64,000 nt of DNA from Thermoanaerobaculia bacterium (GCA_036380735.1 DASVEE010000057.1:11646-75645), one strand, 5' to 3'; counted from the stretch's first letter, positions 17,250-31,989 are shown. Translations and numbers: made by a program. The notes: generated by a model from the sequence alone, not told the origin.

Positions 17250-17387
17250 GACGGACGGTTGAATTTCGAATTTCGAATTTCGAATGAAGAAAGAGGTGCG
17301 GCCCTCTGGGCCGGCGTCAGGTTGCGCGCGCGAAGCGCCTCCTTTTTCTTCATTCGAAATTCGAAATTCGAAATTCAACCCTCCGTC
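17250..17387. repeat. large hairpin with arms of tandem GAATTTC heptamers (45-bp arms, 42-nt loop)
   Basis: GACGGACGGTTGAATTTCGAATTTCGAATTTCGAATGAAGAAAGAGG ... CCTCCTTTTTCTTCATTCGAAATTCGAAATTCGAAATTCAACCCTCCGTC. Confidence 0.9.
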
Positions 17388-17664
17388 ACTCCGGCGCGGC
17401 CCGCTCTTCAATTTCCAGCGGCCCTTCCTTCAAGTCCTCCCGGATGATGAGCTCCAGAAACAGCTCCCGCACCCCGGTTGCTCCCCGTTCGCGGTACACG
17501 CGACGGACGTCGGACGGCTCAAGCCGGATGCCGGTCATCGTCTCCAGGTACTGGCAGAACACCACCGCGCGGGAACGGAAGGAGATGATGAGGATGATGA
17601 GCAGAACGAGGGCGAAGAGGAGCGGCGTGGCCGCGGCGATGCTGTCGAGCTCGAAGATGTTCAT
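17386..17664 (-). CDS. small hypothetical membrane protein (92 aa)
   Basis: ATG at 17664 (MNIFELDSIAAATPLLFALVLLIILIISF...), one TM helix then charged tail; rest of track ORF upstream is likely non-coding. Confidence 0.4.
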   Translation of the reverse strand: MNIFELDSIAAATPLLFALVLLIILIISFRSRAVVFCQYLETMTGIRLEPSDVRRVYRERGATGVRELFLELIIREDLKEGPLEIEERAAPE

Positions 17665-17742
17665 CGGACCGCCGAAATCGTAACAGATTCGGCCGGACCC
17701 GCTTCGGCACCGATGTTGTAAATAAGAGGAGCGGAGGTATGC

Positions 17743-17976
17743 ATGGCCGAAGAACGTTACGAGCCCGTCTCGTGCGACTACCATGACCAGCTCGAAGCCG
17801 CAGCGATGCACAAGAACGATGTGGAGCTGGAGTTCGAGCTGGAAGGGGTGACTCAGAAGGAACGCGGCAAGATCGAGGACGTATATACGTCCGATGGCGC
17901 CGAGTTCGTCCGCTTCGCCTCGGATTCAGGGCCGCTCGAAATCAGACTGGACCATATAATCTCGATGAAAGAATAG
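17743..17976 (+). CDS. rof: Rho-binding antiterminator Rof/YaeO family
   Basis: 77 aa; PVSCDYHDQLEAAAM ... LEFELEG ... resembles E. coli Rof (PINCDDYDNLELACQ...). Confidence 0.6.
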   Translation: MAEERYEPVSCDYHDQLEAAAMHKNDVELEFELEGVTQKERGKIEDVYTSDGAEFVRFASDSGPLEIRLDHIISMKE

Positions 17977-17977
17977 G

Positions 17978-18040
17978 TCCGGGGCTCAGGGCCCAGGCTT
18001 CCCGGGCTTCTCGGAGCCCTGAGCCCTGAGCCCTGAGCCC
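17978..18040. repeat. GC-rich hairpin with (GAGCCCT)x3.5 tandem heptamer arm
   Basis: GGGGCTCAGGGCCCAGG...GGAGCCCTGAGCCCTGAGCCCTGAGCCC between rof stop and next start. Confidence 0.75.
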
Positions 18041-18046
18041 TACACG

Positions 18047-18763
18047 ATGCCCAAACTTCTCTTCTACGTCGGGACGGCCTTCTGCCTCTTCCTCGCCCTC
18101 ACCAGCGGCGCGGAGGCGTTCCGTGAGCTGGAGACGAGCGCCCTCGCGTTCGTCGGGCTGCCGCTGTCGGCTGCGTCGCCGTGGGCCATCTTCGTGGCCC
18201 TCCTCGCCGGGCTGGCCATCGCGGCCATCTTCCTGCGGATGTCGGCGCTGCTCGCTGCCCGCAACCTGTTCGGAGCCTTCTTCGGCATCGTCGCCGTCAC
18301 AGGTGGACTGATCTCGCTGGCCTTCGCGCTCCTCGTCCAGTGGCGCATCGTCCGTGGCGACGTCGCCGCCTCCCCGCTCCTCGGCGAGTTGCATCTGGCG
18401 TCGGTGCTGGCGTTCGGCTTCTTCCTCTCCATGAGCCTTCTGGCGCTGCGGCCGTACTTCAGCATCCAGGCGAGCCGCTTCCTCTCCGCGCTCGTCTTTC
18501 TGCCGCTGCCGCTGTTCGCGCTCATCCTGCTGCAGGAGCTTTTCCTCGCCACCTCGGCCGCCCCGCTCCCGGCCGCGACCCCCGCGTCGCGCGTCTATTT
18601 CGCCGTGTTGTCGATCCTCTTCTTCGCCATCGCCGTCCACTGCATCCGCCACCGCCACCTCTTCCTTGAGATGACCAACCTCCGCGAACTGATGGACGGC
18701 CGCGTCGACCCGCTGGGGCGCGCATCCCGCCGACCGATCGGCGGCGTGGCCTTCGATTCTTAG
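18047..18763 (+). CDS. hypothetical polytopic membrane protein
   Basis: ATG 18047; at least 6 hydrophobic helices, Ala/Leu-rich. Confidence 0.5.
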   Translation: MPKLLFYVGTAFCLFLALTSGAEAFRELETSALAFVGLPLSAASPWAIFVALLAGLAIAAIFLRMSALLAARNLFGAFFGIVAVTGGLISLAFALLVQWRIVRGDVAASPLLGELHLASVLAFGFFLSMSLLALRPYFSIQASRFLSALVFLPLPLFALILLQELFLATSAAPLPAATPASRVYFAVLSILFFAIAVHCIRHRHLFLEMTNLRELMDGRVDPLGRASRRPIGGVAFDS

Positions 18764-18774
18764 CGGCGCCCCTA

Positions 18775-18820
18775 GATAGGACGAATGGGACCGATAGGAC
18801 GAATAGGACCTATGGGACCG
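18775..18820. repeat. ATAGGAC-unit element, single arm (copy 6)
   Basis: GATAGGACGAATGGGACCGATAGGACGAATAGGACCTATGGGACC. Confidence 0.6.
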
Positions 18821-18898: not shown

Positions 18899-20401
18899 TT
18901 ACGGCCTTACGCCCGCCGGCCGCAGTTCCCGTGGCCTTGCACATGCCGCCGCATCGCGCGTTAACTCCCATCGGCGTTCCTCCACGCGATGCCACGCTTT
19001 CGACCGCGCCACGTTCCAGGTGCGCCAGCGCGGCGGGGTGGTCGGCTGCGTGCGCAGCAGCAGCTTCGCGGCGCAGGGTGGCAGCGGCGTGCCGCGCTCG
19101 AGCAGCGCCAGGCGGGCGTCGGCGCTGAGGCGGCCGTGGTAGCCGACGTCGAACGGGCGTACGCCGGCGCTCGCGCGAGCGCGGTTCGTGCGCACGATCA
19201 GCGCGTCGGGATTGATCGCGTGCAGCGTCATCAGAGCGACGAAGCCGGTGGCAATCGCTCCGATGGCGAAGCGCTCGCGGCGTCCTGACAGCGCGGTCAC
19301 CGCCAGCCAGACCAGCAGCGCCGCCAGCCACACGATGAACGCGGTCGTGTACACGCGCAGCTCGGTCAGACCGTACTCGTCGCGGTACAACTCCATGCGG
19401 CGGTAAGCCGAGGCGGCGATGACCAGGACCAGCGCCACCATGGCGTAGGTGAGGATGCGGAAGAAACGAAGCGCCTTCGCGTCCTCTTTGTTCACGATCC
19501 ACTCGGCGAAAAGCAGCAGCGGGATCACCAGTGCGACGACGATCGCCAGCTCGAAGAACCCTCGGCGCGCGTACTCCGCGTACGTCAGCGATTCCGTGAC
19601 CCGGATGACGGTCGTGCCTCCGAAGAGATAGCGGAACTGCACGGCCACGAACGCGGCGAACATCACGTTGACCAGCGTCAGCGCCACGTTCAGCTCCGCC
19701 GCGCGAAGCGTCAGCACCCGCGGTTTCTCCCGGCGCGGCATCGGGCCGCTGGCGATGAGGCTGCGGAAGAAGCACGCCGCGATGACGCCGACGACCAGCG
19801 TCACGAAGACGTGAGCGAAGAGGTCGATGATGTCGACGAAGATCAGGTCGCGCAACAGCTCCGCGAACGCCGCATCGGCGGAGCCGAGGAGGACGCCGAA
19901 GATCAGGAGGAGCGGGAAGGCGAGGAGGCCGCCGCGGATCAGCGTCATCAGGCGCGAGCTGCCGTCACCGCTCGCCAGGCGCCGCCACTGCAGGTCGGAG
20001 AAGGGGAGCTGGAACAGCGCGCCGATCGTCTGCCCCGCGGTCGTGACGATCGCCGCGGCGAGCTCCATCAACCCCGCGGCCGTCGCCCGCACCTCGCGCG
20101 CCGGCAGCGCGACGAGCAGGAGCATGAAGTGACCGACCACCACGTCGAGCCAGACGAGCGGCGCCGCGTCGCGCCAGACGATCCCGATCGCCGCGAGCAG
20201 CGCACAGAGGCCGGGCAACAGGAGCCGGACGAGCGGCTGCGGCCGGAAGCGCTGCGTGAGCGTAACGGCCGCGGCGACGAACAGCAGCGTCCAGAGCGCC
20301 ACATTCAGTCCCCACGGGATGTGGCGGAGGAGCACCGAGGCGGCGAGCCCGATCCCCAGCCCGGTGAGGGCCACGTTCACGGCGGCGCGGTGGTCGTACA
20401 T
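18899..20401 (-). CDS. large polytopic membrane protein (DUF4153/DUF4173-like)
   Basis: start at first true ATG 20401 (MYDHRAAVNVALTGLGIGL...); more than 10 predicted TM helices; upstream part of track ORF 18899..20698 is the 21-bp array read in frame. Confidence 0.55.
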   Translation of the reverse strand: MYDHRAAVNVALTGLGIGLAASVLLRHIPWGLNVALWTLLFVAAAVTLTQRFRPQPLVRLLLPGLCALLAAIGIVWRDAAPLVWLDVVVGHFMLLLVALPAREVRATAAGLMELAAAIVTTAGQTIGALFQLPFSDLQWRRLASGDGSSRLMTLIRGGLLAFPLLLIFGVLLGSADAAFAELLRDLIFVDIIDLFAHVFVTLVVGVIAACFFRSLIASGPMPRREKPRVLTLRAAELNVALTLVNVMFAAFVAVQFRYLFGGTTVIRVTESLTYAEYARRGFFELAIVVALVIPLLLFAEWIVNKEDAKALRFFRILTYAMVALVLVIAASAYRRMELYRDEYGLTELRVYTTAFIVWLAALLVWLAVTALSGRRERFAIGAIATGFVALMTLHAINPDALIVRTNRARASAGVRPFDVGYHGRLSADARLALLERGTPLPPCAAKLLLRTQPTTPPRWRTWNVARSKAWHRVEERRWELTRDAAACARPRELRPAGVRP

Positions 20402-20465
20402 GGTGAACTTTGTACTGCAAAGCGCCGCGATTGTCCATTGCGACGCGGAGCCGGACGTCACGACG

Positions 20466-20945
20466 CTGAGATCGAGGACCTCAACGTTGAAGTCGCGCAT
20501 CTCAACGTTGAAGTCGCGGACCCCAACGTTGAAGTCCCGGACCTCGACGTTGAGGTGGCGGGACCCCAACGTTGAAGTCGCGGACCCCAACGTTGAAGTC
20601 CCGGACCTCGACGTTGAAGTGGCGGACCCCAACGTTGAAGTCCCGGACCTCGACGTTGGAGTCGCGGACCCCGACGTTGGAGTCCCGGACCTCAACATTG
20701 AAGTCGCGGCACCCCAACGTTGAAGTCGCGGACCTCGACGTCGAAGTCGCGGACCCCAACGTTGAAGTCGCCGACCCCGACGTTGGAGTCGCGGACCCCG
20801 ACGTTGGAGTCCCGGACCTCAACATTGAAGTCGCGGCACCCCGACGTTGAAGTCGCGGACCCCAACGTTGAAGTCGCCGACCCCAACGTTGAAGTCGCGT
20901 ACCTCAACGTTGAAGTCGCGCACCTCAACGTTGAAGTTGCGCATC
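20466..20945. repeat. tandem array 1: about 23 copies of 21-bp unit CCAACGTTGAAGTCGCGGACC
   Basis: near-identical units with T/C and A/G variants, each containing the palindrome CCAACGTTGG core; lies 65 bp upstream of gene 18899..20401. Confidence 0.95.
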
Positions 20946-20948
20946 CCG

Positions 20949-21062
20949 GGGTTGGGGCCGGGGGACGATAGGACAAATAGGACGAATAGGACCGATGGGA
21001 CGAATAGGACGCAGACCGATGCCATAGGTCCCATGGGTCCTATCCGTCCTATCGTCCGCCCG
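20949..21062. repeat. ATAGGAC-unit hairpin element (copy 7)
   Basis: GGGACGATAGGACAAATAGGACGAATAGGACCGATGGGACGAATAGGAC ... GTCCCATGGGTCCTATCCGTCCTATCGTCC. Confidence 0.85.
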
Positions 21063-21135
21063 GCCCGGTCTCCCCCGGCCGGATCCGCCATACCGCCGGT
21101 GACGGCGCCCCACGCCGCCGTAGAATGCGCGCCGC

Positions 21136-22023
21136 ATGCTCTGGTTCTTCATTCTCTTTACCGTGCTGCTGCCCGGCATCGGCATCCTCTGGATGTTCCG
21201 CCGCTCCCCGCAGCCGCGCCTCGGCTGGATCGCCACGTTCGCCTTTGCAGCGGCGCTCGTCGGCGTCAGCGTCGTCGCCGCTCCCTGGGGGTGGCTCGGC
21301 TACGGGATCCGCGTACTGATGCTCGCGTTCTTCATCGGCTCGGTCATCTCCTCGTGGCGCCGCAAGGATGCGGAGCCGCAGAAGGACAACCCCTTCTTCA
21401 TCGTCGGCCGCTTCGCCCTCGCCGTCTTCTTCTTCAACGGCCTCGGGCATGCTCTGGCCGGGTGGCGCGAGCCCTCCGGCGCCATCGACATGCAGTTCCC
21501 TCTGGCCGAGGGAGTGGCCATCGTGGGACAGGGGGGCTCGACGATGACGCTGAACTACCACAATGTCGACGTTTCCCAGCGCTACGCCCTCGACGTCCAG
21601 CGCCTCAACCCCCTCGGCATGCGCGCCTGGGGGCTGCTGCCCGAGGAGCCGAAACGCTACGCCATCTTCGGCACGCCGGTGGTGAGCCCGTGCGACGGCA
21701 CCGTCCTCGCGGCGGTCGACGGACTGGCGGACAACCGCGTCGGCCAGACCGACCCAAAGAACCTCGCCGGCAACCACGTGGTGCTCCGCTGCGGAGCGGC
21801 CACCGTCTACCTCGCTCACTTCCAGAAGGGGAGCGTCGCCGTCAAGGCCGGCGCCCCCGTGAAACGCGGCACGCCCCTGGCCAGAGTCGGCAACTCCGGC
21901 AACACCACGGAGCCTCACCTCCACATCCACGCCGAGCGGGGAGGGACGAAGCTCGGCTCCGCCCCCGGCGTGCCGCTGACGTTCGGCGGCCGGTGGCTGG
22001 TGAGAAACAGTTTGGTGTTTTAG
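21136..22023 (+). CDS. membrane-anchored M23 family metallopeptidase
   Basis: 3-4 N-terminal TM helices; C-terminal domain with GTPVVSPCDGTV and VGNSGNTTEPHLHIHAE (M23 HxH motif). Confidence 0.6.
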   Translation: MLWFFILFTVLLPGIGILWMFRRSPQPRLGWIATFAFAAALVGVSVVAAPWGWLGYGIRVLMLAFFIGSVISSWRRKDAEPQKDNPFFIVGRFALAVFFFNGLGHALAGWREPSGAIDMQFPLAEGVAIVGQGGSTMTLNYHNVDVSQRYALDVQRLNPLGMRAWGLLPEEPKRYAIFGTPVVSPCDGTVLAAVDGLADNRVGQTDPKNLAGNHVVLRCGAATVYLAHFQKGSVAVKAGAPVKRGTPLARVGNSGNTTEPHLHIHAERGGTKLGSAPGVPLTFGGRWLVRNSLVF

Positions 22024-22094
22024 CGACAAGGCCGACGAGCCCCGGCAGCCAGGCTGCAGCACCGGCTGATTTACGTGTCGCGCCGCTGTTTTTC

Positions 22095-22560
22095 AGGTGT
22101 CACACGGTCGGTCTTGGGTAACGCTTGCTCTGTTCCGGGTGTCGCAAAGCCGGCTCTGAGTGTCGCAAAGTCGGTTTCGAGTGTCGCAAAGTCGGTTTCG
22201 AGTGTCGCGAAGTCGGTTTTGAGTGTCGCGAAGTCGGTTTCGAGTATCGCGAAGTCGGTTTCGAGTGTCGCATTCTCGTCCTGAGGACACTGAAAGTCGG
22301 TTTCGAGCGTCGCATTCTCGTCCTGAGGACACTGAAAGTCGGTTTCGAGTGTTGCATTCTCGTCCTGAGGACACTGAAGGTCGGTTTCGAGTCTCGCAGT
22401 CTCATCCTCGGGGGCTCGCGTGAATGCTGCGGAGCTTCGACTTGCAGCCCGGGAGTTTCGAGTCGACGTCGTGGAGCTTCGCCCCACGGTCCCGGCGTTT
22501 CGCGTGCGGAGCTCCGCCTGGCAACCGCGGAGTTTCGGGCGGCAGCCGTGAACCTCCCTT
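22095..22560. repeat. tandem array 2: 21-bp units TGTCGCAAAGTCGGTTTCGAG (x6) then 42-bp higher-order units (x3) then degenerate 21-bp units
   Basis: periodicity visible through 22560 (GCGGAGCTTCGACTTGCAGCC / CGGGAGTTTCGAGTCGACGTC ...). Confidence 0.9.
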
Positions 22561-22779
22561 CGGATGGTCTGGACGTCCGACGGAAACCTCGCGGAGTGTC
22601 GATCCGTTCTCACGGAGTCATGCTCGATTACCGAGGACTCCCGTCTTGCACGGGCACGCAGACGAGTTTGGCGCGGAGGGACGCGGGCGCAAAACGAAGG
22701 AAGGAGCCGCCCCAGTGTCCGCTGATGTCCGACGTTGACGGCACTGCGGAACCGTGGGTGCTTGCTGCTGAGTATTCGT

Positions 22780-23352
22780 TCACTGCTGGTGCGGGCTCCG
22801 GCCTGTCATTGCGGTCAACCGCTCTCGCAGCTTTTGTCGGAGATCGGTGATCCCGCGGTACTCAGGCACGTTGTGTACTGAGAGGTCAAAGTGAAGTGCT
22901 GTGCCCTCGTGGCGGTAGAGAATCGGCCGCTTGCCGAGTGCGTGCGCGTAGCCGATTTCGTAGTAAACATTGGGGCGAGCACCTGACAAGTCCGCGAAGA
23001 GGAACTCGGCACGCGCGATATGCTCCAACACGACCTCCGTAATCTTCCCCTGATGCTCGATGTCGTCTGCACGCGCCGCAGCAATGCCGAATTCAGCGAA
23101 CGTCTCTTTGACAATCACGTGCACATCCGCCAATTGTGGCTGCGACGGATCCATCCACATGATGATGAAAGCTGTGTTGGGTGTGTGCGTCGACTGCCGA
23201 ACTTTGGTCGCAGATGCAGGGTTGTCCGCGTGGGCGGTGCGAACGATGCGGAGCGCGTCACTCATCGCGTTGCGTGCTTCTACTTTGGCTGTGTCGATCG
23301 ATGCCTCGCGCGCTTCATCGAAGCTCGGTTGTGGAGAAAGCGCAGTAAGCAA
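22780..23352 (-). CDS. nucleoside 2-deoxyribosyltransferase-like / Rcl(DNPH1)-fold protein
   Basis: C-terminal motif FADLSGARPNVYYEIGYAHALGKRPILY matches the D..GT..E.G.A.A.GKPV catalytic-Glu signature of NDT/Rcl family; track start is TTG, internal ATGs at 23265 and 23160 are alternative starts. Confidence 0.55.
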   Translation of the reverse strand: MLTALSPQPSFDEAREASIDTAKVEARNAMSDALRIVRTAHADNPASATKVRQSTHTPNTAFIIMWMDPSQPQLADVHVIVKETFAEFGIAAARADDIEHQGKITEVVLEHIARAEFLFADLSGARPNVYYEIGYAHALGKRPILYRHEGTALHFDLSVHNVPEYRGITDLRQKLRERLTAMTGRSPHQQ

Positions 23353-23834
23353 AAATCCTGACGCCTTCGAGTTCGCTGCAGGTCGATACTCAACGAAAAA
23401 CTTGCAACCAGCTATCGCTGCGCTAACTTTGCTTAGCAGGCGCGCAATATCGTCGCGACTGTGAGGGGTGTATGGCAGGACGGTTGTGGCGACAAGGCTA
23501 AACCACCGATGAGCACGATCGCGCAGACCGGCGATGATGGCGACGATTCAGGCGGCAATCGGTCGCCGCGGTGGTCATAGGCATCGTCCGAAGGCCAGCT
23601 CTCCAGATGGGCCGCAATATCGTTCTGCAGTTCAATACCAACATCGTAGACCGCGCGAAAGGGTTGTTCCACGTGCACCGGAAGGCTGAGTCCGTGGGGA
23701 TCGTCATCCAGCATCTCTGGAGTATAGCTCGCCCAGAACGGGTCACGAAGGCGGCCGCAAACCCGTAGCAACGAGTGACGACGGCAATGGAAGGGCGGCA
23801 CCGCCGCCCTTCCATGATCAAGACGTCGTGCTAC

Positions 23835-24650
23835 CTACTTGCAGGACTGACCCGACACGCCGGCCATCGTGCAGAAATAGTCGCCGACGAAGCAGTGTGC
23901 GTCGCACTGCAGGACGCGGCAGCAGCCGATACAACGGCTGTTCCAGCACTTCACGTGAGCGTCCTGCTCGGCCTGATAACAGAGCATCGACCGGATGAGC
24001 GTTGCGGGGTCCGCGCCTTGTAAGCCGTAGGCGGTTCCGCGCACCCACAGCCCGCCGCAGCTTCCGCCTGGCGCCTCCCAGGAGTCCGTTTCGAATCCTT
24101 CGAAGGTCTCTCCGCCGGGACCATCGGGAAAGGTGCCGCTCTCATCCACCTTCGCACGGCGGGATAGCCGGCCGTGCAGAGGTACACCATTCTTCGCGAG
24201 GTCGCCCAGTGCTTCCACCGCCAGCGCGATTTCCTTTTCGCGGCGCGCGAATGCCACCTCCGCGCCGGGAGTGGCCGTGGTCGACCGGTCAGCACCGGCG
24301 GTCAATGTGAACCGGCCGCCATCTTTTTCCACGAGCGTCAGCGAAGGCGTCTTCGCATCCCACTCGAGCTGGAACTCGGCTGCTGACGACGCATAGGTGA
24401 TGACGCGCGCGAAGGAGCGCGTTGCCTGTGTGCTGACGCGGGCGGTGACGTTCGCCGATTCGTCCAGCAACTCTACTTCTGTGCTGTTCTCCTGAACGTC
24501 GATGCGATAGCCGGTGACGCCGAGCTCGGCCACCTTCAGCGAAGCCATCCGCGTGTCATCGACGGTCCAATCGTTCGCCGCGAACGCGCCGGGGACAGCA
24601 AGAGCGGCTACAAGAAGTGCGACACTCAGACCCAGTAGTTTCTTCTTCAT
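23835..24650 (-). CDS. secreted hypothetical protein with C-terminal Cys-rich module
   Basis: GGAGA RBS then ATG 24650 (MKKKLLGLSVALLVAALAVPGAFA signal peptide); C-terminus CYQAEQDAHVKCWNSRCIGCCRVLQCDAHCFVGDYFCTMAGVSGQSCK has 10 Cys. Confidence 0.55.
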   Translation of the reverse strand: MKKKLLGLSVALLVAALAVPGAFAANDWTVDDTRMASLKVAELGVTGYRIDVQENSTEVELLDESANVTARVSTQATRSFARVITYASSAAEFQLEWDAKTPSLTLVEKDGGRFTLTAGADRSTTATPGAEVAFARREKEIALAVEALGDLAKNGVPLHGRLSRRAKVDESGTFPDGPGGETFEGFETDSWEAPGGSCGGLWVRGTAYGLQGADPATLIRSMLCYQAEQDAHVKCWNSRCIGCCRVLQCDAHCFVGDYFCTMAGVSGQSCK

Positions 24651-24951
24651 CGAAATCTCCATCGTTGGGCGCGGATCTCCACCGGGCCGGGGGGCCCGTG
24701 CCGCGCCACACGTCAATTGGCATTCCTCTGCCGGGACGTTCTCAGATGGCCATCGGTTTACTTCAGGCAGGAATGATGGGCGGCACGTTAGCGGACGGTG
24801 TGTCGCGCGTCCACTATCAATTTGTAAGCGAACGAAAGACGTGACTCCGCGCGTGTTCGTTCGTGCGAGAATCGGGCGCATCGATGGCGGTACGTAAAGG
24901 TGGCGGTAGGGAGTTGCCGCGCAACGTCACTCCTTCGGAGAGAGCATCGAC

Positions 24952-25824
24952 ATGCCACGAGAGAAGAAAAGCGGGAGGGTCGCGCCGCTGGAAATCGTGA
25001 TGCGCACGTTCCGCCTGCGGCCGTCCAGCGTGGTGGCGGAAGCTGCGCGTTTTGCACGGCTCCTGCGAGTGCGGAAGCTCAGCCGCAACCACCTCCTGCG
25101 CATTCGGAACGGTGCGCGGACTTCGCAGGAGAAGATGATTCTCCTCGTTGCGACGCTGCGCGCCATGACCGGGTGGCCGATCCGCGTTACCGACTTGTTT
25201 GACGTGGAGCCGTTGTTGACCTTCGCGGGCGCCACCGCCGTTTGTGGCGACACTCTTGCGGTTTCAGTATTCTCGCCACAGCCGCAGCGGCTGGCTTCTG
25301 CCATGGACGAGATCGACGACCATTCCTCGGCAACACAAGTTCTGGATCGCTTGTACCGGGAGAACTGCGCGCTCCTCCTGAGCACGGCGATCTGCCGCTA
25401 TCACGTTCCTCCGAAGGATGCCGACGGATTGGTTCATGACGTATTCGCCTCCTACCTGGAGCGGCAACCGAAGGTCGGCGATTCCCGCGCGTACCTGCTC
25501 GGCGCGATCAGGAACGCCTCCCGCCATTACTGGCGGAAGCGTGCGCATGAGAGCCCGTTCCTGCCGGCGCACGCCGAGACGTCGGATGACGCCACGGCCG
25601 CAGGCCTCGACCGCTGGGCCCTGAACGTGAGTCTTTCAGTAGCGCTTTCCAAGCTGGGTGATAAGTGCCGTCAAACCCTGTTCCGCTATTACTTCGCGGA
25701 GGAGCGCCCCGACTCGATCGCACGCGACATGAACACCACGCCCGGCAATGTTTCTCAGATCCTGCATACGTGCAGACGGCGGATTCGGGAGATCTTCCGC
25801 GCGCTGACGGAGCCCAAACGATGA
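24952..25824 (+). CDS. ECF sigma factor with N-terminal XRE-type HTH extension
   Basis: N-terminal LSRNHLLRIRNGARTSQEKMILLVATLRAMTGWPIRVTDLF (XRE-like HTH); sigma region 2 (LDRLYRENCALLLSTAICRYHVPPKDADGLVHDVFASYL) and region 4 (SIARDMNTTPGNVSQILHTCRRRIRE). Confidence 0.7.
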   Translation: MPREKKSGRVAPLEIVMRTFRLRPSSVVAEAARFARLLRVRKLSRNHLLRIRNGARTSQEKMILLVATLRAMTGWPIRVTDLFDVEPLLTFAGATAVCGDTLAVSVFSPQPQRLASAMDEIDDHSSATQVLDRLYRENCALLLSTAICRYHVPPKDADGLVHDVFASYLERQPKVGDSRAYLLGAIRNASRHYWRKRAHESPFLPAHAETSDDATAAGLDRWALNVSLSVALSKLGDKCRQTLFRYYFAEERPDSIARDMNTTPGNVSQILHTCRRRIREIFRALTEPKR

Positions 25825-27152
25825 CGGAACACTTCTCGGAAGCCGAACTCTGGGACTTGGCGAGTGCATCCCAGGCATCTTCCCAACGCGCACGTCTGCA
25901 CTTCGAAGCGTGTGAATCATGCCGGGCGCTCTACGAGTCGTTCGCCGCGATCGATGCCGGCCTGCGGGAGAGAGACGTCTGGGCGGCGGCGGAACACCTT
26001 CGCGTTGAAGGTGCCGACAGCGCCTTACGACTGCGGCAGTTTGCCGCGCGGCTTGACGCTGAGCGCGAGGATGCGGCGCGCCTGCTGCAGCCGGTCCTGA
26101 TCTCACCGGCCGAATTCGAGCGTCACGACGTGGTACGGCAACCTTCATTTCAGACGGCCGCGTGCGTGGAAATTCTGTGCAACACCGCCGAGCAGATGCG
26201 CGAACGACGGCCCTCGTTCGCATTGGCGTTGGCGACAACCGCTGCCACGATTGCCGGAAAGCTGGAACGGACACCTCGCACGCTCGGGCTACGAGCCCGG
26301 GCGGAGTTGGAGAGAGGCATTGCACTGGGAATGACGGGGAAGTTCGCAGGCGCCGAAGCTGCGCTGGAGCGTTCGGCCGCCGCGCTGGACGAGGCGCCGT
26401 TAGCGACGGACTGGGAGTACGCCTGCGTCGGGCTGGCGCGGGGCGTCATCTATTCGAACAGCGAGCGATACGACGAAGCAATCGGTGAGGCTGCCGCCGC
26501 GGCCGCGGTGTTCCGCGAAGCGGGCGATATGACGCGTTATCTGAAAGCACAAATGGTCGTGGCGAACGTCGACATCTACAGAAACCGATACGCGGACGCG
26601 ACGATCATCGCGCAGGAAATCGTCGCCGCTGCACGCCACTCTGATGACGTGCTGCTGCTCGCGCAGGCTCATCACACCGCGGCACTTTGCTACAGCGGCT
26701 TGAACGAGTGCGATACCGCTCTCGACCATTACGCGGAGGCGGCGACCCGATGGGATGAGCTCGGACTTACCACGGAGTGCGTCCGTGTCGAGTGGGCAGT
26801 TGCAGCGCTGCTCGTCCGACAGGGCCACATGGCCGCGGGAATCGAACAACTAGCATTGTTGCCGGGCCGTTTCGCAGCGCTGGGAATGATCAACGACGCG
26901 GCGCTCGCCAGTCTGGATCTTGCGGAGGCGCTGATTCTCGCCGGGCGAGCCTCCGACGTGCCGTTGATTCTGAGCGGCGTGATCGTGACGTTCTCGAACG
27001 AGGGCTTGATGCGCAGCGCCAACTTGGCTCTCGCGTACCTTCGCGAGGCGGCTGGCAGCAACGACGTGAGCGCGGACAAGATCCGCCACGTGCGCGACTA
27101 TCTGGCGGCGCTCCCGACACACCCGGGCCAGCGGTTCGAGCCGCTCCGCTGA
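25821..27152 (+). CDS. putative anti-sigma factor (zinc-binding N-terminus, TPR-like repeats)
   Basis: ATGA overlap with sigma stop; HFEACESCRAL (HxxxCxxC ZAS-like); long helical repeat region. Confidence 0.5.
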   Translation: MTEHFSEAELWDLASASQASSQRARLHFEACESCRALYESFAAIDAGLRERDVWAAAEHLRVEGADSALRLRQFAARLDAEREDAARLLQPVLISPAEFERHDVVRQPSFQTAACVEILCNTAEQMRERRPSFALALATTAATIAGKLERTPRTLGLRARAELERGIALGMTGKFAGAEAALERSAAALDEAPLATDWEYACVGLARGVIYSNSERYDEAIGEAAAAAAVFREAGDMTRYLKAQMVVANVDIYRNRYADATIIAQEIVAAARHSDDVLLLAQAHHTAALCYSGLNECDTALDHYAEAATRWDELGLTTECVRVEWAVAALLVRQGHMAAGIEQLALLPGRFAALGMINDAALASLDLAEALILAGRASDVPLILSGVIVTFSNEGLMRSANLALAYLREAAGSNDVSADKIRHVRDYLAALPTHPGQRFEPLR

Positions 27153-27180
27153 GCGGGAGTGGGCCGGTGCAACATTTTGA

Positions 27181-27590
27181 GTGCGTGCTTCGCCCGTACG
27201 ATCGCGCCGCATGGGCGCAAGAAGGCGGTCTACTCTTCACGACGACGTCGTGCTTGCCGTGAGAATCGAGGAGTATCTGGGCCTTTGCTTCGAATCGTGC
27301 ACGGCTGCACGTGTAACGGAGCTTGCGGAAACGATAGGCGTCAGCCGACCGCTGTTGACGCGCAGGTGCGCCGAAGTGTTTTGGCGCCACGCCTTTACAA
27401 GTGCTGCGCGAACGTCAGCTCGGATTCGCCGCCGGGTTACTCACATCGCTGCCACGGCTCACGGTATCCGAGATTGCCCGAAGGGCGGCGTTTGGAACGG
27501 AAGCAACGATGTTCCGCGCGTTCGTCGCGAGGTATGGATGCACCCCCGAGGAATACCGCAATAAGCTTACAAAATGATAGTGGACGCACT
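27181..27590 (+). pseudogene. frameshifted AraC-family HTH domain protein
   Basis: first HTH helix pair in frame of ORF 27181 (VTELAETIGVSRPLLTRRCAEV), second in another frame (FGATPLQVLRERQLGFAAGLL...FGTEATMFRAFVARYGCTPEEYRNKL); shift in the T-run near 27380. Confidence 0.45.
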
Positions 27591-27624
27591 CTGACCCCTC
27601 GCGTATCGTCCGCAACATTCCGGT

Positions 27625-28338
27625 ATGCATTTAGACAAATTGCTTTCCATCGCGAGCGATCCACTGGGGCCCGCACTGATCCGAGCTTCCTGTGAGGAAT
27701 CAGTCCCTCGGTCGGTATACGAACTGCTGGCAGCTCGGAATGGTTTTTACCTTCTGGCGAAGGCAGTTCACGTGTTCCCACTGAGCGCACACAACATCCT
27801 CCCGATGGATGCAGAACGATGGAATGCACCAGTGCTGTGGAAGGCTGCTTACGGTGGCTTGTGGCGCGACATGTTCGTGTTCGCGGAGAACGCACTGGGA
27901 TGGCAGTTTGGCATGTCTGCCGAGGGGGTCTACGCCTTCGATCCGGAAACTGCCGCTGTGGAGTGGATGGGGCGGAACCTCGAGGAGTGGGGCGACACGA
28001 TCTCTAAGCGGTTCGAGCACTTCACGCGGTTCGGCGTGGTCCACCGCTGGCAGACTGCATTTGGCCCTATTCCGGACGGTGTGCACCTCGTGCCTCGTCT
28101 GCCGGTGGTTCGCGGTGGTTCGTATGATGTTGCGAACTTCCTTCTGACCGATGCCGTCACGAGTCTGCGTATGCGGGCGCGGCTGGCTATCACCGTCGAT
28201 CAGGCTGCAGATGGAACTTCGCTGGGCATCGTGCGCGGCCGTCTTCGCTCGTTCGGCACCAGTCCGGTGGCGGCACCGACGTGCGACCGGTGCAGATTGC
28301 AAAGGTATGTCAACTCGACGTGGCTGGGACAGCACTGA
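27625..28338 (+). CDS. SMI1/KNR4 (SUKH-1)-like protein, possible orphan immunity protein
   Basis: VPRSVYELLAARNGFYL and FVFAENALGWQFGMSAEGVYAFDPE resemble SUKH-1 motifs; no toxin gene adjacent. Confidence 0.4.
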   Translation: MHLDKLLSIASDPLGPALIRASCEESVPRSVYELLAARNGFYLLAKAVHVFPLSAHNILPMDAERWNAPVLWKAAYGGLWRDMFVFAENALGWQFGMSAEGVYAFDPETAAVEWMGRNLEEWGDTISKRFEHFTRFGVVHRWQTAFGPIPDGVHLVPRLPVVRGGSYDVANFLLTDAVTSLRMRARLAITVDQAADGTSLGIVRGRLRSFGTSPVAAPTCDRCRLQRYVNSTWLGQH

Positions 28339-28478
28339 TGATCCCGCAGCTTTGCTGGATGCATTTGGCAATGAATGCGTACGGCCCTCTCCAATCTCTC
28401 ATCAGCGGCGGCCTTCGAGCGGGAACTCAAAGCGCCAGCGACCCGCCGCGCGCACCCGGCGCCACCAGAAGAATCATC

Positions 28479-28697
28479 ATGCCCAGCCCTGAAGATGAAG
28501 CTCGCGCTGAGCTGGCGGAACTGCTCGCGGGATGGAATGCCCTCCTCGGTCTGATCGAGGAGGGGCATCCAGGGCTTGCTTGGATGAAGGGCGACGTCGA
28601 CGCCGCGGCGCGACTGACACGCTCGCTCATCCACAGCATGGCGGACCCTGCTCTGCAACTGCGGCCGACACGCTTGACTGAGGTTCGTGCTCCTTGA
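28479..28697 (+). CDS. small hypothetical protein (72 aa)
   Basis: ATG 28479 (MPSPEDEARAELAELLAGWNALLGLIEEGHPG...) inside track ORF 28281..28697; no motifs. Confidence 0.25.
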   Translation: MPSPEDEARAELAELLAGWNALLGLIEEGHPGLAWMKGDVDAAARLTRSLIHSMADPALQLRPTRLTEVRAP

Positions 28698-28702
28698 ACC
28701 GT

Positions 28703-28878
28703 CAAGGCCACGGCGGCGTCGGTTTTCCGAGCAGCCAGATGACGAAACGGACCACCGCGGGGCGGCTCATCTGTTCTCGGGTGCGTCCGGCGGCGGGTAA
28801 CGCCGATGCCATCGGGGTGAGCGCGATCGCTGCGAGCAGGGCAGTGGTGGCAGCTAACTTATTCACACGTAAAGACAT
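28703..28878 (-). CDS. small secreted peptide (58 aa) not in ORF track
   Basis: AAGGAG SD 5 nt upstream of ATG 28878; MSLRVNKLAATTALLAAIALTPMASA signal peptide then 32-aa mature part. Confidence 0.35.
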
Positions 28879-29144
28879 GCCTTCTCCTTCGGCGCCGCCG
28901 CTTCAAAGTTATGGCGGCTCCGCTGACACAAGGTGACGCCGGCTGGCGTTCAATTAGAGAAGGATTCCGGCGCCTTGCCGTACCTGGCCAGACGGCGTGG
29001 GATCCCGCCTGGAGCCGGACGGCATTCGTCGTGGTGACGCGGCGCTTCGTACCCGCAAGCCGCTCACTCGTACCGGGATGGAAACTTTGTTACCCTTCCG
29101 CCGTTCAACCTGCGGTCACAACATCGTTCCAGGAGGATCACAGG

Positions 29145-31145
29145 ATGAAATCCATCCGTCTGGCGCTCGCCGTTGCTGCGCTCGCCATCACTACGCCGCT
29201 GCTGGCGGCCGGCCGTTTTGAATCGCTGGTGAACGGGTACAAGAACTTGCAGCCTGGTGATGCCACTCAGGTCAGCGGCGTCACGTTCACGATCGGGCAC
29301 ATGAAGATCACGCTCGAGTCGGGTAAGGCGGCGCCGCTCATGGTTGCCGGCGAACAGGCCGGCATCTTCTTCGTGGGGCAGGGGTCGTTTCAATACGTCT
29401 CAGCCGACAAGGTCGAGATTCCAATCCTGACGTACAACACGAAGAAGGAAGCGAAGCTCGATGCCAGCATCAAAGGCACCGAGGCGGTCCTGAGCGACAA
29501 GTTCACCGAGATCCTGCTCCTCGGCGCCGGAGTCGAGCTGCCGAAGCTCACCGGTGGCGGGGCGGGTTCGATCGCCGAAGAGCTGAAGAAGAACGTCGAG
29601 TACTTCGAGCGCGATCGCGGCGTGCCGCAGGAGCATCAGCTCGCGCTGCAGAAGCTCGCGTATCCGACATCGAAAGTCGTCCGCGCGCAGATCCGCGGCG
29701 GCGGCGACAACCTTCTGTATATCTATGACGGCGCCGAGACGACCGAAGAGTCGCTCGTGACGCTGAAGAACATCGGCATCCAGGACCGGACCGTCGGAAG
29801 CTGGCTGCGCTCCTCCACGCTGTCAGCGTTGCCAATCGATCGCGACCGCAAGACGCCGCCGAAGGCTCCGTACCTGCTGACGGACCTCGACTACACGCTC
29901 GTCGCCGATGGCGAAAACGCCAAGATGATGGCGACGGAGACGATCTACCGTCCGGCGCACGCAACGGCTCTTCGCTTTACGCTCAACGACATCTCCCTGC
30001 CGCGCCTCGGCGTGGCGCCGCGCCGCTACAAGGTCAACAGCGTGAAGGACGCGACCGGCCGCAGCCTGCCGTTCGACTTCACCGACACGAGCCTTTTCGT
30101 CAGCGTCGAAGGGATTCAGGGCGAGACGATCAAGCTCACGTTCGACATCGAAGGCGACTACCTCATCCGTCCGAACGGCGACGCGTTCTGGCAGCTCGGT
30201 GTCGAGCCGTGGTTCCCGCAGCCCGATCTGAACGGCCAGTACTACACGGTTCACTCGGTCGTGAAGGTGAAGAAGCCGTGGATCGCCTTCGCCCCCGGCA
30301 AGACCATCCGCCGCGTCACGGAGGGGGACTACAACGTCGTCGAGAACCGACTCAGCGAGCCGGTGCAGTTCGCGGTGGTGCATGCGGGCAAATACGAGTA
30401 CTCCGAGGAGACGCGGGGCGGCTTGACGGTGCGTGTCGCGGCGTATGCCGGCAAGAACGAGCGCGCGGAAAAGCAGCTCACGAACCTCACGTATCAGCTC
30501 GTCGAGTACTACCAGTTCTTCCTCGGGCCCTTCCCGTTCGAGGAGTTCAACATCATCCAGATCAACGACTGGGGCTACGGTGTTGCGCCTCCGGGCACGA
30601 TGTTCGTCACCAACTCGGTCTTCCAGCCGACGATGGGTGATCTCAACCGCATCTTCTCAACCGGGTCGAACGAGCTGTTCGCGCACGAGATCGCGCACCA
30701 GTACTGGGCGCACTCGCTGAAGATGCCGAGCCTCGAGGAGCAATGGCTGACGGAGTCGTTTGCCGAGTACTCGGCAGCCCTCGCGCTGCGGAAATACCAG
30801 GGAGAAGGCGTCTACAAACGCATGGTGGCCCGATGGAAGCAGAGCGCGAAGGACGCCGGCAACATCGCCCCGATCGCGCTGGCCAACCGCATCGCCGGCG
30901 ATCCGCAGGACGCCTTCATGCGCCGAACGGGTCTGCTGTACAACAAGGGACCGTATGTCCTGTACGCAATGCACAAGGAAATGGGCGATGACCAGTTCCT
31001 CACGCTGCTGAAGTCCTACCAGAAGTCGCGGCGCTTCAAGTTCGGCAACACGGCCGACTTCGCGAATCTGGCGCAGTTCCTCACGAAGAAGGACTACCAG
31101 CCGTTCTTCGACAAGTACTTCTGGGGCACTGAGATGCCGCAGTAA
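29145..31145 (+). CDS. secreted M1-family (aminopeptidase N-like gluzincin) metallopeptidase
   Basis: AGGAGG RBS, ATG 29145, signal peptide MKSIRLALAVAALAITTPLLAA; HEIAHQYW ... WLTESFAEY (HExxH-x18-E gluzincin signature). Confidence 0.8.
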   Translation: MKSIRLALAVAALAITTPLLAAGRFESLVNGYKNLQPGDATQVSGVTFTIGHMKITLESGKAAPLMVAGEQAGIFFVGQGSFQYVSADKVEIPILTYNTKKEAKLDASIKGTEAVLSDKFTEILLLGAGVELPKLTGGGAGSIAEELKKNVEYFERDRGVPQEHQLALQKLAYPTSKVVRAQIRGGGDNLLYIYDGAETTEESLVTLKNIGIQDRTVGSWLRSSTLSALPIDRDRKTPPKAPYLLTDLDYTLVADGENAKMMATETIYRPAHATALRFTLNDISLPRLGVAPRRYKVNSVKDATGRSLPFDFTDTSLFVSVEGIQGETIKLTFDIEGDYLIRPNGDAFWQLGVEPWFPQPDLNGQYYTVHSVVKVKKPWIAFAPGKTIRRVTEGDYNVVENRLSEPVQFAVVHAGKYEYSEETRGGLTVRVAAYAGKNERAEKQLTNLTYQLVEYYQFFLGPFPFEEFNIIQINDWGYGVAPPGTMFVTNSVFQPTMGDLNRIFSTGSNELFAHEIAHQYWAHSLKMPSLEEQWLTESFAEYSAALALRKYQGEGVYKRMVARWKQSAKDAGNIAPIALANRIAGDPQDAFMRRTGLLYNKGPYVLYAMHKEMGDDQFLTLLKSYQKSRRFKFGNTADFANLAQFLTKKDYQPFFDKYFWGTEMPQ

Positions 31146-31925: not shown

Positions 31926-31989
31926 TCATTTTATTTGCGCATTTCGTTCAGATGACCTACCTTGCTGTCACGTCCCCCGTCCCGGAGAT

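What the first reader, a model, noticed from the sequence alone, without database searches (positions are those of the whole stretch)
20466..20945. Tandem array 1: about 23 copies of a 21-bp unit between divergent membrane-protein and M23 peptidase genes
The unit CCAACGTTGAAGTCGCGGACC (variants TCAACGTTGAAGTCGCGCATC, TCGACGTTGGAGTCGCGGACC) repeats head to tail with no unique spacers. Each unit spans the 10-bp palindrome CCAACGTTGG at unit junctions. Together with an ATAGGAC hairpin element (20949-21062) it occupies almost the whole 734-bp divergent intergenic region. Both promoters must therefore lie in or beside the repeats. Only a fraction of the array sits in-frame upstream of the membrane-protein ORF (heptad NVEVRDF translations), and that stretch has no true ATG, so it is probably non-coding.
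Basis: seen in the sequence. Interest (0 to 1): 0.6.

Follow-up and report, generated by a model that had tools for sequence, protein, structure and literature searches.

The report
Young non-coding 21-bp satellite array
The flagged stretch is a real, non-coding block of 22 tandem 21/22-base units, one of about 160-200 such arrays in this soil acidobacterial genome that all keep a 21/22-base period; the sister species lacks it, so it is a recent insertion and not a built-in switch for the two neighbouring genes.

Summary
The array is real. It spans 20472-20945: 22 full units (19 of 21 bp, 3 of 22 bp) plus a 9-bp partial unit. It is non-coding. The 22-bp units break every reading frame, and homologues of the DUF4153 protein start at the ATG at 20401.

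Both flanking genes have their own promoter-like sites in unique DNA just outside the repeats.

The unit is an 18-bp near-palindrome (GACYYCAACGTTGARGTC) plus a variable 3-4-bp linker.

The same unit family forms five large arrays and one 2.5-unit copy in this genome, next to unrelated genes. The sister species has none of the five large arrays; its matching gaps at the four other sites are only 21-136 bp.

The array belongs to a genome-wide class: about 200 arrays, 52 kb. Of tandem-repeat loci of 150 bp or more, 158 have period 21, 22, 42, 43, 63 or 64 bp, and none has 19, 20 or 23.

It grew by copying multi-unit blocks. Two 85-bp blocks differ at only 2 positions.

About a quarter of the arrays in this class lie beside two orphan gene families, one with an Xis/BldC-like DNA-binding domain. 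This array does not.

Best reading: a young, dispersed DNA satellite. A protein-docking role is possible but unshown.

This scan has described the same class before on other DNA.

The parts
20472..20945 (.). Tandem array: a 9-bp partial unit plus 22 units (19 of 21 bp; units 4, 11 and 17 are 22 bp). Each unit is an 18-bp near-palindrome GACYYCAACGTTGARGTC plus a variable 3-4-bp linker.
20650..20903 (.). Two tandem six-unit (127-bp) blocks, 20650-20776 and 20777-20903. They differ at 8 of 127 positions, and their first 85 bp differ at only 2. This is the trace of a recent multi-unit duplication.
   Evidence: Higher-order period of 127 bp. Self-identity is 0.839 at offset 127 against 0.768 at offset 21; block comparison.
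20954..21066 (.). Hairpin-forming element with arms made of 9-bp ATAGGACNN units (arms 20954-20998 and 21022-21066). It is a copy of a repeat that is very common across the genome and lies directly beside the array.
   Evidence: The arm motif T[AG]GGAC occurs about 5,850 times on each strand of the genome.
20408..20437 (-). The DUF4153 gene's own control region. It holds -35 TGGACA (20437-20432), a 17-nt spacer, -10 TACAAA (20414-20409), then 7 nt before the ATG. The dyad CTTTG-N5-CAAAG (20422-20408) is conserved upstream of orthologues in three other genera.
   Evidence: Read. That this is a promoter is inferred.
18899..20401 (-). DUF4153 membrane-protein gene (500 aa, start ATG at 20401).
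   Evidence: Pfam PF13687, E = 1.9e-74. Homologues align from residues 2-11.
21099..21126 (+). Promoter-like site of the M23 gene: GTGACG, 16 nt, TAGAAT. The -10 ends 9 nt before the ATG.
   Evidence: The sister species has TACAAT 10 nt before its ATG.
21136..22023 (+). Gene for a membrane-anchored M23 peptidase (295 aa).
   Evidence: Pfam PF01551, E = 1.1e-13. The orthologue in the sister species is 81% identical in DNA.
20438..20471 (.). Unique spacer between the DUF4153 promoter-like site and the first repeat unit.

Best explanation
Array 1 is a young, non-coding DNA satellite.

Shown:
- It is one of five large arrays and one 2.5-unit copy of a unit family found only in this genome among the collections searched.
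- It belongs to a genome-wide class of about 160-200 intergenic arrays. These differ in sequence but all keep a 21/22-bp period, which equals two turns of the DNA helix.
- The sister species lacks all five large arrays of the family.
- The array grew by duplicating multi-unit blocks.
- It lies upstream of, and outside, the promoter-like sites of both flanking genes.

Inferred:
- It arrived with, or next to, a hairpin element of the ATAGGAC type. At three of the other five places the same units lie inside the loop of such an element.
- It then expanded by unequal recombination or replication slippage. Its self-complementarity would favour this, because two adjacent units can fold into an 18-bp stem.
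- At this locus its effect is probably passive: about 600 bp of extra spacer between two back-to-back promoters.
- The sharp period lock suggests a constraint tied to the helical repeat, such as a protein that polymerises in a two-turn register. For this array that remains a hypothesis.
For: Reality and non-coding nature.

Family membership:
- The same unit occurs at C34, C35, C52, C67 and C69. The neighbours are unrelated housekeeping genes: accC/aroK, AMMECR1/lytic transglycosylase, histidine kinase/mgtE, and a DnaJ-like gene.
- Mean unit distance between arrays (1.8-3.3 of 21 for C57, C52, C67 and C35) is about the same as within arrays (1.2-2.7).

The class:
- Whole-genome TRF finds about 200 arrays of three or more copies with period 20-23, totalling 52 kb.
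- Loci of 150 bp or more by period: 21 bp, 116; 22 bp, 12; 42 bp, 8; 43 bp, 14; 63 bp, 3; 64 bp, 5. None has period 19, 20, 23, 25 or 26.

Recency:
- The unit has no array in 40 relatives, including the same genus.
- At the four other large-array sites, the sister-species flanks are 76-87% identical. The gaps are 70, 136, 21 and 38 bp, against 423-622 bp here.
- At this locus the sister contig has the M23 gene behind an 85-bp gap. It has none of the four arrays found in this 20-kb region.
- Conversely, the sister species has a 556-bp array of a related unit at a site where this genome has only a lone hairpin arm.

Link to hairpin elements:
- The units lie inside the loop at C52, C67 and C69, and beside the element at C35 and here.
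- Genome-wide, a left arm before the array and a right arm after it occur 6 + 4 times. The reverse arrangement never occurs.

Growth in blocks.

Promoters outside the array.

Self-complementarity: two-unit hairpins fold at -16 to -25 kcal/mol as RNA and -10 to -11.5 as DNA, z = -3 to -5.6. Single units fold no better than shuffles.

Literature: a survey of 119 reference bacteria found dispersed non-coding satellite families with long repeats only in Leptospira interrogans (PMC6749651).
Against: - A purely neutral satellite does not explain why the period is locked to 21/22 bp across about 70 unrelated unit families.
- Within this family the 15-16-bp core is conserved at 84-100% per position, apart from one Y position at 60%. 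The linker varies in sequence and length. That pattern could mean selection on the core, although my anchoring pattern forces part of it.
- Only about 5-8% of all arrays sit clearly inside a hairpin loop, so hairpin-borne spread is not general for the class.
- No read data could be used, so the copy number in the assembly and its variation are unverified.
- The only independent contig found, a Logan contig from SRR25158503, is 100% identical over 20981-22296. It breaks inside the hairpin before reaching the array.
Confidence: 0.72

Rival explanations
1. The array is a docking platform on double-stranded DNA. Each 18-bp near-palindrome binds a protein dimer, or units are read head to tail. The 21/22-bp register puts all sites on one face of the helix, so a cooperative filament forms, as on plasmid iterons, partition centromeres or the direct repeats bound by Xis- and BldC-type proteins. 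The filament would insulate or co-regulate the two divergent promoters, or organise the chromosome.
For: - The period is strictly two helical turns across the whole class.
- The unit has a conserved palindromic core and a variable linker.
- Two orphan gene families are enriched beside arrays. F1: 17 of the 234 array-flanking proteins, where 1.2 were expected. F2: 9, where 1.2 were expected.
- The order F2, then array, then F1 recurs.
- The N-terminal domain of F2 superposes on mycobacteriophage Pukovnik Xis and on BldC-DNA complexes (TM 0.69-0.76 normalised to the target, probability 0.99-1.0). Both protein types bind direct repeats cooperatively (PMC5859096, PMC7498355).
- In other Thermoanaerobaculia genomes, 16 of 29 F2 loci have a 21/22-bp-type array just downstream. 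None has one in the 2 kb upstream.
Against: - None of the six places carrying this unit family, and nothing on the 85-kb contig, has an F1 or F2 gene.
- F2 is 83% identical on average across copies, while units differ completely between arrays. F2 therefore cannot read each unit sequence.
- The 18-bp core occurs nowhere outside the arrays, so no operator-type regulon is visible.
- The arrays are not conserved between sister species.
- Only 42% of units in the class have an inverted repeat with arms of 5 bp or more.
- There is no phasing of A/T-rich tracts.
- The Foldseek E-values are weak (0.04-0.3), because the matching domain is small.
Confidence: 0.2
2. The array is a contingency locus. Gain or loss of units changes the spacing or topology between the two divergent promoters, and so switches expression of the membrane protein and the peptidase.
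For: - It sits between two divergent promoters.
- Block duplications show the copy number has changed recently.
- The self-complementary units should be prone to slippage.
Against: - Both promoter-like sites lie about 35 bp or more outside the repeats, so changes in unit number would not alter -35/-10 spacing.
- The same family sits in a convergent gap and three co-directional gaps beside unrelated genes.
- As a class, arrays are over-represented in convergent gaps, which hold no promoters: 27% of arrays against 16% of gene pairs.
- The orthologues work without an array.
Confidence: 0.05
3. The array is transcribed and acts as structured RNA: a chain of hairpins, or a precursor of about 21-nt small RNAs.
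For: - The region folds far better than shuffles: the plus strand at -380 kcal/mol and the minus strand at -456 kcal/mol, z about -19 to -23.
- With G-U pairs, the minus strand pairs almost perfectly between neighbouring units.
Against: - No Rfam family matches.
- No promoter-like or terminator-like site lies in the array.
- Both flanking promoters point away from it.
- Arrays of the class show no orientation bias relative to flanking genes (31 of 44 against 28.4 expected, p = 0.14).
- Any tandem array of a near-palindrome will fold well, so the z-score carries no information.
- Single-unit hairpins fold no better than shuffles.
Confidence: 0.05
4. The array encodes a heptad-repeat N-terminal extension of the DUF4153 protein.
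For: - The minus-strand frame of the gene stays open back to an ATG at 20698.
- A crude codon-usage gene caller extended the gene into the array.
- Twenty-one bp equals seven codons.
Against: - The frame is broken by the 22-bp unit at 20692-20713, and again at two further 22-bp units.
- Homologues start at the position of the ATG at 20401, and a conserved control dyad lies directly upstream of it.
- Sister arrays lie between unrelated genes, including in a convergent gap.
- Whole families in the class have 22- or 43-bp periods.
Confidence: 0.02

Closest known systems
Dispersed non-coding bacterial satellites and minisatellites (families in Leptospira interrogans; mycobacterial MIRU-VNTR loci), as surveyed in PMC6749651
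   Same: Head-to-tail units of 10-100 bp. Intergenic. Several copies of one unit family scattered through a genome. Growth by block duplication. Presence or absence differs between close relatives.
   Different: Here the whole class is locked to 21/22 bp, whereas the Leptospira families are 37, 46 and 69 bp. The density, about 29 arrays per Mb, far exceeds the survey's mark: only 18 of 119 reference bacteria had more than 4 satellites per Mb. About 70 unrelated unit families share one period.
Iteron arrays of theta-replicating plasmids (R6K, RK2, pPS10, F, P1) and the tandem-repeat centromeres of type II and III partition systems (parC/ParR, tubC/TubR); from my own knowledge
   Same: Direct repeats of 17-22 bp in a register of about two helical turns. 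Such repeats are bound cooperatively by small DNA-binding proteins.
   Different: Those arrays have 3-12 units and lie beside the gene for their binding protein, and, for iterons, beside an origin. This array has 22 units, lies on the chromosome, has no rep or par gene nearby, recurs at six places, and has no match in plasmid or phage collections.
REP/BIME elements of Enterobacteria and REPIN/RAYT systems
   Same: Short imperfect palindromes, intergenic, dispersed in hundreds of copies, sometimes in clusters. Over-represented behind genes.
   Different: BIMEs alternate inverted REPs with defined linkers, whereas these units are strictly head to tail. No RAYT-type transposase was looked for. 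The unit families are species-specific rather than one family per genome.
Binding sites of recombination directionality factors and BldC: direct repeats bound head to tail by winged-helix proteins (PMC5859096, PMC7498355, PMC11963761)
   Same: Tandem direct repeats in helical register. A protein with this fold (F2) is encoded directly upstream of many arrays of the class.
   Different: Known sites are 2-6 repeats spaced one turn apart. These arrays have 10-35 repeats spaced two turns apart. No F2 gene lies beside this array. Binding has not been tested.
CRISPR arrays
   Same: Partly palindromic repeats of similar length in long arrays.
   Different: There are no spacers: units abut directly. 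There is no leader shared among arrays. No cas genes were identified among the annotated neighbours.

Membership tests
Bacterial minisatellite / non-coding satellite | Head-to-tail units of about 10-100 bp without spacers | tested here: met
   22 units of 21/22 bp that abut directly.
Bacterial minisatellite / non-coding satellite | Non-coding, intergenic position | tested here: met
   Frames are broken by the 22-bp units. Homologues start at 20401. The array lies between two promoter-like sites.
Bacterial minisatellite / non-coding satellite | Copy number varies among strains | not testable with these tools
Scans of metagenome and genome contigs found no other copy. The one independent contig breaks before reaching the array. 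Presence or absence between sister species was shown.
Period-locked 21/22-bp intergenic arrays of Thermoanaerobaculia (a class defined within this scan, not in the literature) | Period of 21 or 22 bp, or a multiple; unit sequence private to a lineage; intergenic | tested here: met
Period-locked 21/22-bp intergenic arrays of Thermoanaerobaculia (a class defined within this scan, not in the literature) | Adjacent F2 (Xis/BldC-like) or F1 orphan gene; seen in only about a quarter of arrays | tested here: not met
   No F1 or F2 gene on contig C57 or beside any of the six places carrying this unit family.
Plasmid-type iteron array | Direct repeats of 17-22 bp in a register of about 22 bp | tested here: met
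Plasmid-type iteron array | Adjacent gene for the initiator that binds the repeats | tested here: not met
   The neighbours are a DUF4153 membrane protein and an M23 peptidase. There is no plasmid or phage match.
REP/BIME | Clusters of REPs in alternating orientation with defined linker motifs | tested here: not met
   All 22 units are in the same orientation.
REP/BIME | Partner RAYT (Y1 transposase) in the genome | not tested
   Not searched.
CRISPR array | Repeats separated by unique spacers | tested here: not met
   No spacers.
Heptad-repeat coding sequence | One open frame through the whole repeat | tested here: not met
   Three 22-bp units shift the frame. The longest open frames inside the array are about 100 codons.
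Structured RNA family (Rfam) | Match to a curated covariance model | tested here: not met
   No match at gathering thresholds in the whole window.

The most novel reading that the evidence does not exclude
The 21/22-bp arrays, this one included, could be the DNA half of an undescribed chromosomal system in Thermoanaerobaculia. A conserved family of proteins with an Xis/BldC-like winged-helix domain (F2, perhaps together with the helical, basic F1 family) would polymerise on any sequence repeated in a two-turn register. It would read the period rather than the sequence. Arrays would then act as boundary or insulator elements between transcription units. Solo arrays such as this one would be sites bound by proteins encoded elsewhere in the genome.
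Probability: 0.15. Interest if true: 0.8.

Novelty: new variant of a known kind. Interest (0 to 1): 0.5.

Why it matters
Taken alone, this array is a tolerated insertion between two promoters. It does not explain how the two genes are controlled.

Its interest lies in the class it belongs to.
- Hundreds of intergenic arrays, with about 70 unrelated unit sequences, all hold to a 21/22-bp period.
- They turn over completely between sister species.
- The same unit can colonise five sites within one species' lifetime.

A mutational process alone should not produce so sharp a period. Either some ruler generates these repeats, or a protein that reads two-turn phasing selects them. The link between arrays and a gene for an Xis/BldC-like protein makes the second idea directly testable.

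There is also a practical point. These arrays break short-read assemblies, and they mislead gene callers into predicting false heptad-repeat 'coiled-coil' proteins.

Tried and rejected
- **Intrinsic curvature or phased A/T-rich tracts:** A/T positions in units cluster no more than in shuffled units. This held for harmonics 1-3 and for the longest A/T run.
- **Strand-specific function:** there is no orientation bias of arrays relative to co-directional genes.
- **A shared leader or boundary motif:** no 7-mer is notably enriched in the array flanks.
- **Every array sits in a hairpin loop, or forms a self-complementary giant hairpin:** only 5-8% have inverted flanks. My blastn test for self-complementarity was too insensitive to use. 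Arms of 5 bp or more occur in 42% of units against 9% of shuffled units, which is enriched but not universal.
- **AACGTT as a restriction-modification target or decoy:** the site is only mildly under-represented (0.57 observed over expected).
- **An operator regulon:** the 18-bp core occurs nowhere outside the arrays.
- **Copies in other strains:** nothing was found in metagenome contigs with the DUF4153 protein or a two-unit pattern, or in genome contigs. Plasmid and phage collections gave no match. Exact-protein look-ups of two DUF4153 start variants were not on record.
- **Fold of F1:** no significant match. F1 and F2 have no Pfam match.
- **Does every large unit family have a member beside an F1/F2 gene?** By my reading of the table, 11 of the 13 largest do. 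My hand estimate of about 9.3 expected by chance means nothing follows from this.
- **A concatenated-flank query to test many orthologous sites at once:** abandoned, because the sequence was too long to carry over.

Full report
**Observation**

The window is G000:C57:11646-75645, from a 6.86-Mb draft genome of 76 contigs with 66% GC.

Tandem Repeats Finder reports 20472-20941 with period 21, 22.2 copies and 84% matches. It also finds a higher-order period of 127 bp at 87%. Parsing by hand gives 22 full units at 20481-20945, preceded by a 9-bp partial unit. Nineteen units are 21 bp; units 4, 11 and 17 are 22 bp.

YCAACGTTGR matches 12 times in the window, all inside the array, where 0.23 matches are expected by chance.

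The true symmetry is an 18-bp near-palindrome, GACYYCAACGTTGARGTC, followed by a linker of 3-4 bp that varies in sequence and length.

The neighbouring ATAGGAC hairpin element is real. Its arms are 20954-20998 and 21022-21066, and it folds at -38.7 kcal/mol as single-stranded DNA, z = -5.7.

**Coding or not**

Five of the six frames of the unit lack stop codons, and an ATG at 20698 opens the DUF4153 frame inside the array. However, each 22-bp unit shifts the frame, so no open frame crosses the array.

The DUF4153 domain (PF13687, E = 1.9e-74) lies in the form of the protein that starts at 20401. Homologues in three related genera align from residues 2-11 of that form. The array is non-coding.

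**Promoters**

The only sigma-70-like match in 20200-21300 is GTGACG-16-TAGAAT at 21099-21126, 9 nt before the M23 ATG. No promoter-like or terminator-like site lies in the array. The sister species has TACAAT 10 nt before its M23 ATG and no repeats upstream.

On the minus strand, TGGACA-17-TACAAA (20437-20409) ends 7 nt before the DUF4153 ATG. The dyad CTTTG-N5-CAAAG (20422-20408) recurs as ACTTTG-N3-5-CAAAGT directly before the start codon of the orthologues in three other genera. One of those orthologues has a divergent gap of only about 55 bp.

So each gene carries its own compact control region in unique DNA. The array plus hairpin fills the space between them, starting about 35 bp beyond each -35 site. 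That these sites are promoters, and that the transcripts have almost no leader, is inferred.

**The unit family**

The same unit forms arrays at four other places:

| Place | Position | Neighbours |
|---|---|---|
| C34 | 57970-58296 | accC, then array, then aroK |
| C35 | 110432-110673 | AMMECR1, then array, then a lytic transglycosylase |
| C52 | 41268-41528 | between a convergent histidine kinase and mgtE |
| C67 | 165898-166396 | before a DnaJ-like gene |

A 2.5-unit copy also lies at C69.

The neighbours are unrelated, so this is not a regulon of one gene family. The 18-bp core occurs nowhere else in the genome.

Units from C57, C52, C67 and C35 are about as similar between arrays (mean 1.8-3.3 differences in 21) as within arrays (1.2-2.7). 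C34 is more diverged. Differences concentrate in the linker, although my anchoring pattern forces part of the apparent core conservation.

**Growth**

Self-identity is highest at an offset of 127 bp (0.839, against 0.768 at 21 bp). Units 9-12 and 15-18 differ at 2 of 85 positions. The array therefore grew recently by copying a six-unit block, as expected for unequal recombination or slippage.

A single unit folds no better than shuffled sequence. Two adjacent units form an 18-bp stem, at -25.1 kcal/mol as minus-strand RNA, -16.1 as plus-strand RNA and about -10 to -11.5 as DNA. The whole array is thus self-complementary in many registers, which should favour slippage. The large fold z-scores for the whole region follow from this property and are not evidence of an RNA gene.

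**Relatives**

A search allowing two mismatches found 41 units in this genome. No array turned up in 40 relatives, including the other genome of the genus.

On the sister-species contig C144:
- The M23 gene follows a different gene after an 85-bp gap.
- The DUF4153 gene, array 1, the hairpin, array 2, a 7-kb stretch (window 22024-29068) and the double array at 31.3-31.9 kb are all missing.

At the four other sites of the family, the sister-species flanks are 76-87% identical. The gaps are 70, 136, 21 and 38 bp, against 423-622 bp here.

Conversely, the sister species has a 556-bp array with a 43-bp period and a related unit (TCGATTTTGAAGTCGCCGCAYC). It lies at a site where this genome has only a lone hairpin arm.

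Orthologues of the DUF4153 gene in three other genera have no array upstream.

Arrays are therefore gained and lost quickly. They are not conserved parts of the neighbouring genes' control.

**Link to hairpin elements**

At C52, C67 and C69 the units lie between the left and right arms of an ATAGGAC-type element. At C67 the whole composite is absent from the sister species. At C35 and at this locus the array abuts a complete hairpin.

Genome-wide, a left arm before the array and a right arm after it occur 6 + 4 times among 181 arrays. The reverse arrangement never occurs. A general test for inverted flanks finds this in only 5-8% of arrays, about twice the control rate.

Spread with hairpin elements is therefore plausible for this family. 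It is not shown for the class.

**The class**

Whole-genome TRF finds about 200 arrays of three or more copies with period 20-23. They total 52 kb and fall into about 70 sequence families. Many sit at contig ends.

Among tandem-repeat loci of 150 bp or more:

| Period (bp) | 21 | 22 | 42 | 43 | 63 | 64 | 19, 20, 23, 25, 26 |
|---|---|---|---|---|---|---|---|
| Loci | 116 | 12 | 8 | 14 | 3 | 5 | 0 |

Using my own crude codon-usage gene calls, arrays lie in co-directional, convergent and divergent gaps at 85: 42: 28. The baseline for all gene pairs is 3462: 819: 832, so convergent gaps are over-represented.

Further tests on the class:
- There is no orientation bias relative to genes.
- There is no A/T phasing.
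- There is no shared flank motif.
- Inverted repeats inside units are enriched but not universal: 42% against 9% in shuffled units.

In samples of 74-100 kb per genome taken from relatives, long 21-bp arrays were frequent in one other genus of the family (G010). They were short and few in G020, and absent from the samples of six other genomes. The samples were taken at contig starts, which biases towards repeats.

A published survey found dispersed non-coding satellite families with long repeats in only one of 119 reference bacteria. Only 18 of them had more than 4 satellites per Mb (PMC6749651). No paper in the library mentions both Thermoanaerobaculia and tandem repeats.

**Partner genes of the class**

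All-against-all comparison of the 234 proteins flanking arrays found two orphan families far above expectation:

| Family | Flanking arrays | Expected | Copies in the genome |
|---|---|---|---|
| F1 | 17 | 1.2 | 27 |
| F2 | 9 | 1.2 | 26 |

Twenty-one of 27 F1 genes have an array within 1.5 kb, always on the 5' side. Ten of 26 F2 genes have one, and in nine of those ten it is on the 3' side. In one place the order is F2, then array, then F1.

Neither family has a Pfam match. All named homologues are hypothetical proteins of Thermoanaerobaculia or Acidobacteriota.

The F2 model has a mean pLDDT of 81. Its N-terminal domain of about 50 residues superposes on mycobacteriophage Pukovnik Xis and on BldC bound to DNA. 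TM scores are 0.69-0.76 normalised to the target, rmsd about 2 Å and probability 0.99-1.0, but E-values are only 0.04-0.3. Proteins of this kind bind direct repeats cooperatively, head to tail (PMC5859096, PMC7498355, PMC11963761).

The F1 model (pLDDT 86) is helical with a basic tail. It has no significant fold match.

In other Thermoanaerobaculia genomes, 16 of 29 F2 loci have a 21/22-bp-type array within about 50-1900 bp downstream, each with its own unit. None has one in the 2 kb upstream. These loci are related to one another, so the count overstates independence.

Two points argue against a simple binder-and-site pairing. F2 is 83% identical on average across copies, while units differ completely. 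And no F1 or F2 gene lies on this contig or beside any array of this unit family.

**Verdict**

Shown:
- The array is real and non-coding, and it was recently expanded.
- It is absent from the sister species.
- It is one of five large arrays and one 2.5-unit copy of a dispersed unit family.
- It is a solo member of a period-locked class.
- It lies outside both promoters.

Inferred:
- It was seeded with a hairpin element.
- It grew by slippage or unequal recombination.
- Its role at this locus is passive.

Open: why the period is locked to two helical turns, and whether a protein such as F2 binds these arrays.

This scan has described the same class several times on other DNA. I re-derived the class features and the link to orphan genes independently here.

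Limits:
- The assembly is a draft from a metagenome.
- The genome search closed before F2/F1 presence could be compared with array density across relatives.
- The only independent contig found stops in the hairpin before the array.

Noticed in passing
window 17401-18762 (flanked by repeats at 17261-17376 and 18775-18820): This 1.4-kb segment, holding three small genes, is inverted relative to the sister-species contig. It is bracketed by a 7-bp-unit hairpin (GAATTTC / ATTCGAA) on one side and an ATAGGAC-unit run on the other. This suggests inversion between repeat elements.
   Followed up: partly
window 22024-29068: About 7 kb of lower GC (59-63%) with weak coding signal is absent from the sister species, where the M23 gene is followed after 64 bp by the orthologue of the gene at 29145-31145. 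The stretch starts with array 2 (22132-22408). Array 2's unit family has at least nine related copies in the sister genome, at 70-79% identity.
   Followed up: partly
window 20408-20422 and loci L010, L011, L012 around 1440-1500: A conserved dyad, ACTTTG-N3-5-CAAAGT, lies directly before the start codon of DUF4153 genes in four genera. It is likely an operator, or part of a promoter for a transcript with almost no leader.
   Followed up: partly
G000 C5:72226-74115, C35:13837-14950, C66:94445-95495 and about 30 other places; loci L083-L111: Two orphan protein families are tied to 21-bp arrays. F2 is about 160 aa with an Xis/BldC-like N-terminal winged helix, and the array lies just downstream of it. 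F1 is about 160-190 aa, helical with a basic tail, and the array lies upstream of it.
   Followed up: partly
G000 C69 about 33700-33950: A 2.5-unit copy of this array's unit lies inside the 170-nt loop of a complete ATAGGAC-type hairpin element. It could be a seed state of such arrays.
   Followed up: no
G001:C149:8711-9266 (L019 1315-1870) versus G000 C34:71085-71165: The same convergent gap holds a 556-bp array with a 43-bp period in the sister species, and only a lone ATAGGAC arm in this genome. Different repeat types replace each other at one site.
   Followed up: yes
whole genome: CAGCTG is strongly avoided (616 observed against 3,131 expected) and AAGCTT is at 0.37 of expectation. This pattern is typical of restriction-modification pressure.
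   Followed up: no
contig ends: C18, C20, C29, C30, C41, C47 and C55 in G000; G010 contigs C2, C3 and C5: Many contigs begin inside a 21-bp array. These arrays break assemblies, so their true number and length are underestimated.
   Followed up: no
window 18899-20569 and 31610-31993: A codon-usage gene caller extends or invents genes inside 21-bp arrays, because the units are GC3-rich and free of stop codons. Predicted 'heptad or coiled-coil' proteins that overlap arrays should be distrusted.
   Followed up: partly
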